From: Candidatus Thorarchaeota archaeon
Lineage (GTDB): Archaea > Asgardarchaeota > Heimdallarchaeia > Hodarchaeales > Hodarchaeaceae
Direction of reading: 5' to 3'
DNA: 32,000 nucleotides
Assembly: GCA_048882505.1 (NCBI GenBank)
Contig: JBHLRO010000030.1
Location: forward strand, 3,540-35,539
The notes beneath the pieces are model-generated. The model was not told the origin of the DNA and ran no database searches. It saw only the letters and a list, made by a program, of their open reading frames with translations. The stretch's first letter is position 1, and every line of letters begins with the position of its first letter. Shown here piece by piece: positions 11,856-15,877 of the stretch. Position numbers and translations under genes: made by a program.

Positions 11856-11929
11856 GGGCCGGTGGTCTAGCTCGGTATGACGGCTCCCTCACACGGAGCA
11901 GGTCGATGGTTCAAATCCGTCCCGGCCCA
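11856..11929 (+). tRNA. tRNA-Val (anticodon CAC), intronless, CCA not encoded
   Basis: Acceptor GGGCCGG/CCGGCCC plus discriminator A; D arm GTCT...TGAC; anticodon arm GCTCC-CTCACAC-GGAGC; T arm GATGG-TTCAAAT-CCGTC; T-rich tail follows. Confidence 0.97.
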
Positions 11930-15444: not shown

Positions 15445-15483
15445 GCGAAAATTTTTAAAGACTCTTAGAACCGCCTTTAATTG
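15445..15483 (+). promoter_or_regulatory. Candidate BRE/TATA elements for the permuted 5S transcript
   Basis: GCGAAAA-TTTTTAAAG at 15445-15460 and TTTAATTG at 15476-15483. Either places the TSS upstream of the 5' arm of the processing stem (15517). Confidence 0.3.
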
Positions 15484-15537
15484 AATCTAAAGGTACAGAA
15501 TCTCACGTTGTATCATGACATCGAGATCCTGCCGGAA

Positions 15538-15686
15538 GTTAAGCCGAGTTTCGTTCTGATCTGTACTGTTATGCGCGAGCTTACGGGAACATCAGAAAAC
15601 GGGTATTGCCCGTTCATAGGGCTCGAGTAACACCCGGTCTCATTCCGAAAGATATGAAGGAATTTCTTCATTCCGGGAACCCGGAA
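15538..15686 (+). rRNA. rrf: 5S rRNA gene, circularly permuted and intron-containing
   Basis: 15538-15603 is the 5S 3' half (GTTAAG CCGAGTT TCG TTCTGAT CTGTAC...GC-GCGA-GC...GGGAAC ATCAGAA AACGGG). 15604-15608 is the linker TATTG. 15609-15649 is the 5' half (CCCGTT CATAG GGCTCGAG TAACA CCCGG TCTCATTCCGAA). 15650-15679 is an intron and 15680-15686 is CCCGGAA. Helices I (CCCGTT/AACGGG), II, III and V (TTCTGAT/ATCAGAA), loop E and the GCGA tetraloop are all recoverable. Confidence 0.93.
15650..15679 (+). other. 30-nt archaeal BHB/BHL-type intron in 5S rRNA loop C
   Basis: Central helix UCCG(15644-47)/CGGG(15674-77), bulges AA|A (15648-50) and AA|C (15678-80), intron hairpin GA-U-AUGAAGG-AAUU-UCUUCAU-UC. 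Removal restores CAUUCCGAACCCGG. Confidence 0.85.
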
Positions 15687-15877
15687 ACAGGATCCTCATG
15701 TCCATTTACTTGGATATTAGGGATGTGGAGAGTATGTTGTTTTTAGAATAGACATCGAAGGTTTTCCCCAAGGACCAATGTCCATATTCGTGATTTTTAA
15801 TGTATATGAATCGATTCTTATCAAAGGAATGAAAAAGCAGATTCAAAATCATTTCAGTTTTGGTTGGGACTGTTATA

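What the first reader, a model, noticed from the sequence alone, without database searches (positions are those of the whole stretch)
15538..15686. Circularly permuted 5S rRNA gene: 3' half precedes 5' half and the native ends are joined by a loop
Seen in sequence: the 5S 3' portion (15538-15603, GUUAAG...GC-GCGA-GC...AACGGG) lies upstream of the 5' portion (15609-15649, CCCGUU CAUAG...CACCCGGUCUCAUUCCGAA). The native 3' end AACGGG and 5' start CCCGUU are perfectly complementary (helix I) and are separated only by UAUUG, so helix I is a capped hairpin. Reassembled, the molecule is CCCGUUCAUAGGGCUCGAGUAACACCCGGUCUCAUUCCGAA|CCCGGAA|GUUAAGCCGAGUUUCGUUCUGAUCUGUACUGUUAUGCGCGAGCUUACGGGAACAUCAGAAAACGGG (114 nt), with all 5S helices recoverable. 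Established: permuted archaeal tRNA genes and the permuted SRP RNA genes of Thermoproteus mature through BHB cleavage and ligation, and circular rRNA intermediates occur in archaea. I know of no described genomically permuted 5S rRNA gene, but could not search the literature. Inference: the product is a 119-nt covalently closed 5S rRNA, or a 114-nt linear one if the UAUUG loop is later opened. Such genes would be missed or reported as fragments by standard rRNA finders.
Basis: partly seen in the sequence, partly recalled or inferred. Interest (0 to 1): 0.97.

Follow-up and report, generated by a model that had tools for sequence, protein, structure and literature searches.

The report
Circularly permuted, intron-bearing 5S rRNA gene
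This Heimdall-group Asgard archaeon encodes its only 5S ribosomal RNA back-to-front and with a 30-base intron, so a normal 5S sequence can arise only by tRNA-style cutting and rejoining, probably into a closed ring; this would explain why 5S genes seemed to be missing from these close relatives of eukaryotes.

Summary

- **Gene order.** Window 15538-15686 holds a 5S rRNA gene with the 3' part first, helix I capped by UAUUG, then the 5' part. A 30-nt insert sits in loop C.
- **Model scores.** Rfam's linear 5S model scores 20 bits. A permuted covariance model built only from relatives scores 137 bits (E 1e-36) over its full length.
- **Only 5S gene found.** No other 5S was found in the 94.5%-complete genome.
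- **Distribution.** The same arrangement occurs in 79 of 83 species genomes of the class, including closed Heimdallarchaeum genomes whose authors could not find a 5S gene. It also occurs in many other Asgard families.
- **Structure.** All 5S helices and a flanking processing stem covary. The flanks form a bulge-helix-bulge (BHB) motif whose cut sites rejoin to the canonical ...CCCGGAA-GUUAAG...
- **Enzymes.** The genome encodes two splicing-endonuclease paralogues and RtcB.
- **RNA evidence, from relatives only.** Metatranscriptome contigs from two studies, laid on a relative's gene from another Asgard family, cover only the 122-nt unit. They carry exactly the predicted junction, and one closes into a circle.
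- **Intron.** The loop-C insert has its own BHB and recurs at the same site in a distant family.

No RNA data exist for this organism, and whether the ribosomal 5S stays circular is open. No paper in the searched library describes this. The scan has noted the same kind of gene on other genomes before.

The parts
15445..15459 (+). Possible archaeal promoter: GCGAAAA (BRE-like) followed by TTTTTAAA (TATA-like), about 58 nt upstream of the processing stem.
   Evidence: Read from the sequence only; inferred. One related family has a conserved AAACTTTAAAA at a similar distance.
15517..15531 (+). 5' strand of the leader-trailer processing stem (GACAU-C-GAGAUCCUG).
   Evidence: It pairs with 15688-15702 in the minimum-free-energy fold. 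The homologous stem shows compensatory changes in all 7 modelled pairs across 31 relatives (helix 1).
15532..15538 (+). BHB-1, 5' side: central-helix strand CCGG (15532-15535) and bulge AAG (15536-15538). The predicted cut is 15537|15538.
   Evidence: Hand parse checked for pairing. In relatives whose helix III is not palindromic, this tetramer always matches the helix III 5' strand and so complements the 3' strand. The homologous cut site is confirmed in RNA contigs of relatives.
15538..15603 (+). 5S rRNA 3' part: GUUAAG (loop B side), helix II 3' strand, helices V and IV with loops E and D, and helix I 3' strand.
   Evidence: Model R1 alignment, RF00001 partial alignment, covariation.
15604..15608 (+). 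UAUUG loop capping helix I where the normal 5S ends would be.
   Evidence: Sequence. The capped helix I covaries (GGG/CCC, GAG/CUC, GAA/UUC, helix 6).
15609..15649 (+). 5S rRNA 5' part: helix I 5' strand, loop A, helix II 5' strand, helix III 5' strand and loop C up to ...CAUUCCGAA.
15650..15679 (+). 30-nt BHB-type intron in loop C. Central helix UCCG (15644-15647) pairs with CGGG (15674-15677). The bulges are AA|A (15648-15650) and AA|C (15678-15680). The inner hairpin spans 15651-15673.
   Evidence: It appears as a 31-nt insertion relative to model R1. Removing it restores CAUUCCGAA-CCCGG. A 30-nt insert with the same boundaries and an unrelated, covarying hairpin occurs in another Asgard family, and G016 of the same genus has the window's own insert with one change. 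The pairing is consistent.
15680..15687 (+). End of loop C plus helix III 3' strand (CCCGG), which is also the BHB-1 central-helix strand (15681-15684), and bulge AAA (15685-15687). The predicted cut is 15686|15687.
   Evidence: The junction is homologous to the one seen in RNA of relatives.
15688..15702 (+). 3' strand of the processing stem (CAGGAU-C-CUCAUGUC).
15740..15744 (+). T5 run, a possible archaeal transcription terminator.
   Evidence: Sequence only. Relatives also have T-runs 15-40 nt after the stem. Inferred.

Best explanation
Window 15517-15702 is the organism's only detectable 5S rRNA gene, and it is functional. It is written in circularly permuted order: the 3' part, then a capped helix I, then the 5' part. 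A 30-nt intron interrupts loop C.

Proposed pathway:
1. An independent transcript folds so that leader and trailer form a long stem ending in a BHB motif.
2. The archaeal tRNA-splicing endonuclease cuts after A15537 and after A15686.
3. RtcB joins A15686 to G15538, recreating the universal ...GAACCCGGAA-GUUAAGCC... of helix III and loop B.
4. A second BHB within loop C is cut after A15649 and A15679 and religated, which removes the intron.

The product is a 119-nt covalently closed 5S rRNA.

What is shown:
- the gene order;
- that it is the only 5S gene found in the genome;
- its conservation and covariation;
- that the enzyme genes are present;
- the ligated junction and a circle-closing contig in RNA of relatives.

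What is inferred:
- that the same cuts and ligations happen in this organism;
- which enzymes act, and in what order;
- that the ring itself is the ribosomal form. My odds are about 60% for the ring and about 25% for re-opening in the helix I cap.
For: - **Identity and uniqueness.** The permuted model R1 scores 137.2 bits, E 1e-36, over its full length, against 20.3 bits for RF00001. It is the only significant hit in the 4.3-Mb, 94.5%-complete genome.
- **Fit to canonical 5S.** The reassembled RNA aligns colinearly with canonical Asgard 5S rRNAs and folds as a 5S.
- **Conservation in the class.** The same order is found in 79 of 83 species genomes, 14 of 14 high-quality ones and all 7 families.
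- **Named genomes.** They include the closed genomes of Ca. Heimdallarchaeum aukensis and H. endolithica. Their authors wrote that 5S genes 'could not be predicted' (PMC8813620).
- **Covariation.** 96.5% of cells are paired against 73.7% when shuffled. 32 of 41 pairs have compensatory changes. The score is 0.647, against 0.13 or less when partners are slid. The outer stem varies compensatorily at all 7 pairs.
- **BHB pairing.** The 5'-flank tetramer tracks the helix III 5' strand in every non-palindromic case, as BHB pairing predicts.
- **RNA from relatives.** On a relative's gene (L139, a closed genome of another Asgard family), contigs from two metatranscriptomes of different studies cover only the 122-nt unit. 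They contain a joint that 'goes back 122' from 242 to 121, which reads ...CACGGAA-GUUAAG. One 151-nt contig equals the unit plus a k-1 overlap, that is, a closed cycle.
- **Enzymes in this genome.** There are two endonuclease paralogues of 182 and 213 aa, each with both EndA domains, and RtcB.
- **Intron.** Its boundaries are invariant, its hairpin covaries (7 of 8 pairs), and it lies at the same site in another family.
- **Feasibility.** The double-BHB fold lies only 5 kcal/mol above the minimum free energy.
Against: - No RNA run holds this organism's locus, so processing here rests on homology.
- The RNA evidence consists of assembled contigs of low depth (3.7 and 9) from relatives 95-99% like a gene of another Asgard family. 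Contigs cannot show ends or abundance.
- BHB-1 is relaxed in the window. The 5' bulge is 2-3 nt, the inner helix is at most GUU/AAC, and the central helix competes with native helix III. The minimum-free-energy fold picks helix III-like pairing instead.
- The BHB central helices are nearly invariant, so they give little covariation.
- Ten of 31 relatives have an A-C mismatch in the fourth central pair.
- BHB-2 lacks a proper outer helix.
- Nothing shows which form sits in the ribosome.
Confidence: 0.85

Rival explanations
1. The gene and the cut-and-join step are the same, but the circle is only an intermediate. An unknown nuclease then opens the helix I cap (UAUUG), giving an ordinary linear 5S of about 114 nt. 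Permuted tRNA precursors are opened in this way after circularisation.
For: - Permuted tRNAs mature through a circular intermediate that is then opened at the acceptor stem (PMC3978253).
- Circular 16S and 23S RNAs are commonly described as intermediates (PMC12918454).
- The cap loop varies in sequence and length (4-9 nt), as a spacer might.
Against: - No processing signal is conserved at the cap.
- Helix I is only 6-8 bp, 3-4 bp shorter than in canonical Asgard 5S, and would be weak with free ends.
- RNA contigs of relatives span the cap loop in several pieces, and one closes the full circle. This is a weak hint, because contigs cannot rank abundance.
- In some relatives a roughly 35-nt insert sits in the cap. 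If it is spliced out, which I have not tested, a short UUCG-type cap would be restored.
- Thermoproteus SRP RNA shows that a permuted RNA can stay circular and still function (PMC4731332).
Confidence: 0.25
2. No ligation takes place. The transcript is only trimmed, and a linear permuted 5S is used whose ends lie in helix III or loop C. The 5'-flank CCGGAA would act as the helix III 3' strand, and everything after ...CAUUCCGAA would be a discarded trailer.
For: - The minimum-free-energy fold of the precursor pairs the 5'-flank CCGG with the helix III 5' strand.
- Brown-algal mitochondrial 5S rRNAs are permuted in the final product without ligation (PMC4267664).
- Engineered E. coli ribosomes tolerate a 5S opened in loop C (PMC7283268).
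Against: - Where helix III is not palindromic, the 5'-flank tetramer equals the helix III 5' strand (CGAG/CGAG/CUCG, CCAG/CCAG/CUGG, CAAG/CAAG/CUUG, CUGG/CUGG/CCAG). It therefore cannot replace the 3' strand, but it does pair with it, as a BHB requires.
- This model leaves the conserved downstream CCCGGAA, the covarying outer stem and the conserved intron boundaries without a role.
- RNA contigs of relatives carry the ligated junction and no flanks.
Confidence: 0.06
3. The locus is an assembly artefact, or a decayed remnant of a tandem 5S array, and the working 5S gene lies in the unassembled 5% of the genome.
For: - The genome is a draft of 83 contigs, 94.5% complete.
- rRNA genes are often left unassembled.
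- A truncated pseudo-copy and tandem copies exist in two relatives.
Against: - The same order is found in closed genomes and in about 180 of roughly 270 species genomes searched across the phylum.
- Independent DNA runs hold the locus.
- There is strong compensatory covariation in every helix.
- No archaeal canonical 5S was found in the genomes of the class that were searched with RF00001. The only two hits clearly above the cut-off lie behind bacterial 23S ends on 2.3-2.6-kb contigs, so they are contamination. A third hit, just at the cut-off (38.4 bits, G067), lies on a permuted gene.
Confidence: 0.01

Closest known systems
Permuted, circular SRP RNA of Thermoproteus tenax and T. uzoniensis (Plagens et al. 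2015, eLife, PMC4731332)
   Same: - A universal structured RNA whose gene seemed to be missing.
- The gene is circularly permuted.
[quoted passage not shown]
- The circle is the functional form (abstract).
   Different: - The RNA here is 5S rRNA, a ribosome component.
- It is spread over most of a phylum rather than a few species.
- This copy also carries an intron.
- Circularity and function are not shown experimentally.
Circularly permuted tRNA genes of Cyanidioschyzon merolae and other algae, and of one archaeon (review: Soma 2014, PMC3978253)
   Same: - The 3' half lies upstream of the 5' half.
- A BHB forms at the junction of the precursor ends.
- There is a circular RNA stage.
- Some genes also carry a BHB intron, so both swapping and splicing are needed (abstract).
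   Different: - In tRNAs the circle is re-opened at the acceptor stem to give functional ends.
- Here no conserved re-opening signal was seen.
- RNA contigs of relatives span the cap.
Circular or permuted 23S rRNA in archaeal ribosomes (Pyrococcus furiosus, PMC7758197; diverse archaea, PMC12918454)
   Same: BHB-dependent excision and ligation of an rRNA, with the ligated form kept in ribosomes.
   Different: - Those genes are colinear in the genome; only the RNA is circular or permuted.
- That literature states that 5S is not processed in this way (PMC12918454, Background).
Permuted mitochondrial 5S rRNA of brown algae (Valach et al. 2014, PMC4267664; model mtPerm-5S)
   Same: A 5S rRNA in which a hairpin takes the place of the open helix I, and which standard models miss.
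   Different: - It is organellar.
- The ends lie at the junction of two domains.
- The final product is linear and permuted, with no BHB and no ligation.
- No Rfam family other than RF00001 matched the window locus at E up to 10.
Engineered circularly permuted 5S (cp5S) grafted into E. coli 23S rRNA (Huang et al. 2020, PMC7283268)
   Same: The native 5S ends are closed by a 4-nt connector and new ends are opened in loop C or loop D. The cells are viable, which shows that a capped helix I is compatible with a working ribosome.
   Different: It is artificial and bacterial, and the 5S is tethered to 23S rather than circular.
Low-level circular 5S rRNA reads in Sulfolobus and Halobacterium (Danan et al. 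2012, PMC3326292)
   Same: Circular 5S molecules were detected by circRNA-seq.
   Different: - They come from colinear genes and are joined at the native ends.
- They are minor species that RT-PCR did not validate, and may be degradation products.

Membership tests
5S rRNA (Rfam RF00001) | Reaches the family's gathering score (38 bits) on the genomic sequence. | tested here: not met
   Score 20.3 bits at 15504-15604, and only the 3' part is truly aligned. This is expected for a permuted gene.
5S rRNA (Rfam RF00001) | Five helices around a three-way junction, with conserved loop A, C and E sequences, once the order is restored. | tested here: met
   The reassembled 114-nt RNA aligns colinearly, with no internal gap in the window row, to 8 canonical Asgard 5S rRNAs at 55-67% identity. 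It folds into the three-arm structure both as a linear and as a circular molecule. All helices covary in 31 relatives.
5S rRNA (Rfam RF00001) | It is the organism's 5S gene: no other copy exists. | tested here: met
   There is no other RF00001 or R1 hit in the 94.5%-complete genome. Closed genomes of the same genus and class likewise have only permuted copies.
Circularly permuted RNA genes matured by splicing endonuclease and ligase | The 3' part is encoded upstream of the 5' part, with the native ends linked. | tested here: met
Circularly permuted RNA genes matured by splicing endonuclease and ligase | Leader and trailer form a BHB: a 4-bp helix between two 3-nt bulges on opposite strands. 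| tested here: met
   - The outer stem has 14 bp.
- The central helix pairs CCGG with CCGG.
- The 3' bulge is AAA and the 5' bulge is AA(G).
- The inner helix is weak, so this is a relaxed form.
- The outer stem covaries.
- The 5'-flank tetramer tracks helix III.
- Some relatives, such as L139 and L051, have textbook 3-nt bulges.
Circularly permuted RNA genes matured by splicing endonuclease and ligase | Cutting after the second bulge nucleotide and joining restores the canonical sequence. | tested here: met
   The join ...GAACCCGGAA + GUUAAGCC... is identical in length and sequence to the canonical Asgard 5S at this site.
Circularly permuted RNA genes matured by splicing endonuclease and ligase | The ligated junction is present in RNA. 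| tested here: inconclusive
   There are no RNA data for this organism. In relatives of another family, the junction and a circle-closing contig occur in two metatranscriptomes.
Circularly permuted RNA genes matured by splicing endonuclease and ligase | The genome encodes the endonuclease and an RNA 3'-phosphate ligase. | tested here: met
   PF01974 and PF02778 are found in two ORFs of 182 and 213 aa. PF01139 (RtcB) scores 541 bits.
Circularly permuted RNA genes matured by splicing endonuclease and ligase | The endonuclease cuts the precursor at the predicted sites. | not testable with these tools
   This needs an in vitro cleavage assay.
Archaeal BHB (endonuclease-dependent) introns | Intron ends lie in two 3-nt bulges separated by a 4-bp helix, and removal restores the conserved sequence. 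| tested here: met
   UCCG pairs with CGGG, and the bulges are AA|A and AA|C. Removing 15650-15679 gives CAUUCCGAA-CCCGG. The outer helix is replaced by helix III plus a 6-nt loop, so this is a relaxed form.
Archaeal BHB (endonuclease-dependent) introns | Conserved boundaries with a variable, structurally conserved interior. | tested here: met
   In 13 distinct sequences from two classes, the central helix and bulges are invariant and the inner hairpin has compensatory changes at 7 of 8 pairs.
Archaeal BHB (endonuclease-dependent) introns | The spliced form is present in RNA. | not tested
   No RNA run was laid on an intron-bearing copy.
Permuted mitochondrial 5S (mtPerm-5S type, Valach 2014) | Ends at the junction of two domains, a linear permuted product and no ligation signal. 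| tested here: not met
   Here the ends lie in a BHB at helix III. No Rfam family other than RF00001 matches the locus at E up to 10. The paper's description differs.

The most novel reading that the evidence does not exclude
In Heimdallarchaeia, and in most other Asgard lineages, the 5S rRNA in working ribosomes is a covalently closed circle of about 120 nt. It would be made from a permuted gene by the tRNA-splicing machinery, and in some lineages only after removal of one or two 30-nt mini-introns. This would be the first cellular 5S rRNA without ends. It would make ribosome biogenesis in the closest archaeal relatives of eukaryotes depend on EndA and RtcB.
Probability: 0.55. Interest if true: 0.95.

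Novelty: new variant of a known kind. Interest (0 to 1): 0.9.

Why it matters
- **A textbook assumption is affected.** 5S rRNA is one of the most conserved genes known, and its gene is assumed to be colinear and easy to find. The searched literature says archaeal 5S is not processed through circularisation (PMC12918454).
- **The trait is widespread.** The 5S gene is permuted across the whole class Heimdallarchaeia and in many other Asgard families, and it is the only 5S gene present there.
- **It would explain a published puzzle.** No 5S gene could be predicted in closed Heimdallarchaeum genomes (PMC8813620).
- **It affects genome quality scoring.** Standards that require a 5S gene for a high-quality draft will wrongly penalise these genomes, because Rfam-based annotation misses the gene. 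A permuted covariance model would fix this.
- **It ties ribosome assembly to the splicing machinery.** Making a ribosome here would depend on the tRNA-splicing endonuclease and RtcB.
- **It predicts a circular 5S rRNA** that can be tested directly in cultured Asgard archaea.
- **It adds a new class of introns.** Mini-introns of about 30 nt sit at several sites in these 5S rRNA genes; I found no description of 5S rRNA introns in the papers I searched, though I ran no search aimed at them.
- **It bears on the origin of permuted RNA genes.** The tandem and truncated copies seen in relatives fit the duplication model proposed for permuted tRNA genes.

Tried and rejected
- **Rfam.** At gathering thresholds Rfam finds only tRNA-Val in the window.
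- **RNA runs for the window.** No RNA holder was listed.
- **Nanopore RNA runs.** X24 and X25, from the wetland study linked to L139, had nothing laid on them.
- **Minimum-free-energy fold.** The fold of the precursor does not show the BHB central helices. I did not count this against the model, because the BHB fold lies only 5 kcal/mol higher.
- **Genome-wide pattern scan.** It gave four false positives: three Thermoplasmata and one Halobellus. These are ordinary colinear 5S genes with a chance CCGAWCC downstream.
- **Submitter labels.** Labels such as 'Thorarchaeota', 'Hermodarchaeota' and 'Bathyarchaeia' on three true hits do not fit their sequence groups. I did not rely on them.
- **Canonical 5S hits in G005 and G023.** These are bacterial contamination. 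G005 has its own permuted copy.
- **RF00001 hit in G067.** This 38-bit hit looked like a canonical copy, but it lies on a simple permuted gene.
- **Partial model hits in G016, G017, G003 and G056.** They looked like split genes but are cut by contig ends.
- **The 'nick in loop C, no ligation' model.** Rejected on three-way covariation.
- **First alignment with the window included (A1).** MAFFT misplaced the intron, so I built the model without the window (A2).
- **Names of coded families.** I could not name the other Asgard families with these tools. Guesses from genome size, from the wetland study and from earlier notes (Odin-like, Freya/Atabeya-like, Loki-type) remain guesses.
Full report
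**1. What is in the sequence**

- GUUAAGCC...AACGGG lies at 15538-15603.
- UAUUG lies at 15604-15608.
- CCCGUUCAUAGG...CAUUCCGAA lies at 15609-15649.
- A 30-nt stretch follows at 15650-15679.
- CCCGGAA lies at 15680-15686.

Rfam's linear 5S model does not reach its cut-off anywhere in the window. With relaxed thresholds it gives one 20.3-bit hit, in which only the 3' part is truly aligned. The whole genome (4.32 Mb, 83 contigs, 94.5% complete) has no other 5S-like hit.

**2. The arrangement is conserved**

A search of 40 relatives with RF00001 found the same weak, split signal almost everywhere. When aligned, 18 other species of the genus show the same order: 3' part, capped helix I, then the 5' part with an intact helix III and loop C. 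All are flanked by complementary leader and trailer sequences.

A pattern that requires the 3'-half motifs to precede loop C was scanned over 185,579 species genomes and gave 68 loci. About 60 of them are named Heimdallarchaeota, Hodarchaeota or Promethearchaeati. They include the complete genomes of Ca. Heimdallarchaeum aukensis and H. endolithica, with two copies each, and three other chromosome-level records, CP070695, CP070665 and CP070760. Four hits were ordinary colinear 5S genes of other archaea.

**3. Structure and covariation**

I aligned 31 distinct relatives without the window (A2). RNAalifold recovers:
- the leader-trailer stem;
- helix II;
- helices V and IV;
- a capped helix I;
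- helix III.

Of the 41 pairs, 32 show compensatory changes. On the named structure, 96.5% of cells pair, against 73.7% after shuffling. The covariation score is 0.647 against 0.217, and 0.13 or less when partners are slid by 1-3 columns.

A covariance model built from this alignment (R1) matches the window at 15512-15706. The score is 137.2 bits, E 1.1e-36, over its full length, with a 31-nt insertion in loop C. It finds no second copy in the genome.

After reassembly (5' part + CCCGGAA + 3' part), the 114-nt sequence aligns, with no internal gap in the window row, to eight canonical 5S rRNAs of other Asgard families at 55-67% identity. It folds as a 5S. Helix I is 3-4 bp shorter than in the canonical genes.

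**4. Distribution**

| Group searched | Model | Result |
|---|---|---|
| Class, 83 species genomes | R1 | 79 with a hit; 14 of 14 high-quality genomes; all 7 families |
| 41 genomes of genus, order and class (window's genome included) | RF00001 | 2 hits above cut-off |
| Phylum sample, 151 genomes | RF00001 | 49 above cut-off, nearly all in six families |
| Phylum sample, 151 genomes | R1 | full-length hits of 40-136 bits in 14 further families, some with closed genomes of 1.4, 2.8 and 3.6 Mb |

The only two RF00001 hits clearly above the cut-off in relatives lie directly behind bacterial 23S ends on contigs of 2.3 and 2.6 kb. They are contamination, and one of those bins also has its own permuted copy. 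A third hit in the class, at the cut-off (38.4 bits, G067), lies on a permuted gene.

The permuted gene is therefore the rule in much of the Asgard phylum. I could not attach names to the coded families.

**5. The termini form a BHB**

In the window:
- GACAU-C-GAGAUCCUG (15517-15531) pairs with CAGGAU-C-CUCAUGUC (15688-15702).
- Next to this stem, CCGG (15532-15535) can pair with CCGG (15681-15684).
- That leaves AAA (15685-15687) bulged on the 3' strand and AA(G) (15536-15538) bulged on the 5' strand.

In archaeal tRNA introns the endonuclease cuts after the second bulge nucleotide; I take this rule from established knowledge and did not test it here. Applied here, it gives ...CCCGGAA joined to GUUAAG..., which is exactly the canonical sequence.

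The central helix is nearly invariant, so it offers little covariation. However, in the four cases where helix III is not palindromic, the 5'-flank tetramer is identical to the helix III 5' strand and complementary to its 3' strand: CGAG/CGAG/CUCG, CCAG/CCAG/CUGG, CAAG/CAAG/CUUG and CUGG/CUGG/CCAG.

BHB pairing predicts this pattern. It contradicts a model in which the 5' flank simply replaces the helix III 3' strand and no ligation is needed.

The motif in the window is relaxed, with a short 5' bulge and a weak inner helix. Some relatives have textbook versions.

**6. RNA evidence, from relatives only**

No RNA run holds the window's locus. For a relative's gene on a closed genome of another Asgard family (L139), RNA runs were listed, and four were laid on the locus.

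- Contigs from two metatranscriptomes of different studies (soil 2022, peat 2018) lay on it. The two Nanopore runs gave nothing.
- These contigs cover only positions 121-242, which is the predicted 122-nt unit. They do not cover the flanks.
- Both runs contain a joint that 'goes back 122' from 242 to 121. On the RNA strand this reads ...CACGGAA-GUUAAGC..., the junction that the BHB rule predicts, with a 2-nt ambiguity in the repeated AA.
- The soil contig is 151 nt, which is the unit plus a k-1 overlap. This is how a closed cycle appears in a de Bruijn assembly.
- Other contigs span the helix I cap.

These are low-depth contigs from relatives. They cannot show ends or abundance, and DNA in the libraries cannot be formally excluded. 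A joined form without flanks is nevertheless what processing and ligation predict.

**7. The 30-nt insert is a second BHB intron**

- UCCG (15644-15647) pairs with CGGG (15674-15677).
- The bulges are AA|A (15648-15650) and AA|C (15678-15680).
- The interior forms a 9-bp hairpin, and all pairs check out.
- Removing 15650-15679 restores CAUUCCGAA-CCCGG.

G016, another species of the genus, has the same insert with one change. In a large family of another class, 11 further distinct genes carry a 30-nt insert at exactly this site. Their boundaries are invariant (CCG-AAN...CGGG-AAC-CCGG) and their hairpins are unrelated in sequence but covary at 7 of 8 pairs.

In that family, about 40 of the 96 model hits are 195-199 nt long. 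That is about 30 nt longer than the intron-free genes, as one such insert would make them. Two hits are 226-227 nt long.

**8. Enzymes**

The genome encodes two splicing-endonuclease paralogues of 182 and 213 aa. Each has the N-terminal and catalytic domains. One resembles the catalytic repeat and the other the structural repeat of two-repeat enzymes. The genome also encodes RtcB.

A two-subunit enzyme would fit the broad-specificity type that accepts relaxed BHBs. This last point rests on general knowledge and is an inference.

**9. Comparison with what is known**

- **Closest precedent:** the permuted SRP RNA of Thermoproteus. It is circularised by the splicing machinery and works as a circle (PMC4731332).
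- **Permuted tRNA genes:** they share the gene layout, the BHB and even additional introns, but their circle is re-opened (PMC3978253).
- **Circular and permuted 23S rRNAs:** they arise from colinear genes (PMC7758197 and PMC12918454).
- **Brown-algal 'permuted' mitochondrial 5S:** linear and unligated (PMC4267664).
- **Engineered cp5S in E. coli:** shows that a capped helix I is compatible with function (PMC7283268).
- **Circular 5S reads in Sulfolobus:** minor and unvalidated (PMC3326292).

Seven full-text searches found no description of a permuted archaeal 5S gene.

This scan's own notes list the same kind of gene on at least 57 other genomes and on this same stretch.

**10. Verdict**

| Claim | My odds |
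|---|---|
| This is a real, functional, circularly permuted 5S rRNA gene, and the only one found in the genome | about 97% |
| It matures by BHB cutting and ligation | about 90% (by homology, and by RNA evidence in relatives) |
| The intron is removed in the same way | about 85% |
| The ribosomal 5S remains a 119-nt circle | about 60% |
| The circle is re-opened in the helix I cap | about 25% |

The last two rows are the open question.

Noticed in passing
L161-L165, L174 (helix IV / loop D); L134, L177 (helix I cap); L168 (another loop C site); L179, L180 (two inserts): In another Asgard family of 135 species, permuted 5S genes carry inserts of about 30 nt at several different positions. Some genes have two inserts and are 226-227 nt long. 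They look like a family of mini-introns in 5S rRNA.
   Followed up: partly
L004, L005, L025-L027, L029 and many of L031-L098 (Heimdallarchaeaceae-type genes): These genes have a conserved, covarying hairpin of about 25 nt between the outer stem and GUUAAG in the 5' flank. Two alternative tetramers (UCAG next to the stem, CAGG or CGGG next to GUUAAG) can each pair with the 3' strand. It looks like an intron placed exactly at the permutation junction, which would need two successive BHB events.
   Followed up: partly
L147 (G023:C510:3500-4090) and L148 (G008:C16:11100-11800): One relative has two permuted 5S copies in direct tandem. Another has a truncated pseudo-copy (3' part only) about 330 nt upstream of the intact gene. 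This fits an origin by tandem duplication, as proposed for permuted tRNA genes.
   Followed up: no
L141 (G041:C30:2941-3125): A family of the same class has a 185-nt version with a 22-nt insert. Its flank sequences suggest that the break point lies in loop C rather than after helix III.
   Followed up: no
L182, L185 (G067:C77, G068:C118): In one family the permuted 5S follows, about 30 nt downstream, a sequence that by eye resembles part of 23S rRNA (...GAAGCAUCUA...CUGAAAGCAUAAAUAAG...); I did not check it against an rRNA model. If so, the 5S there may be co-transcribed with LSU rRNA, unlike the stand-alone gene in the window.
   Followed up: no
same genome, other contigs (earlier notes e1-5416875 and e1-5416899): Earlier first-reader notes report a free-standing 23S domain VI in this genome, possibly a split or rearranged LSU rRNA gene. 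If real, it might be another rRNA rearrangement repaired at the RNA level.
   Followed up: no
window 11856-11929 (+): An ordinary tRNA-Val (CAC), 61 bits. It is the only Rfam gathering-level hit in the window.
   Followed up: yes
window 15474-15493 (+): A hairpin, CCUUUA-N8-UAAAGG, lies in the presumed leader between the TATA-like box and the processing stem. Relatives have a different hairpin at a similar place (GGUUUGUAG...CUACAACC).
   Followed up: no
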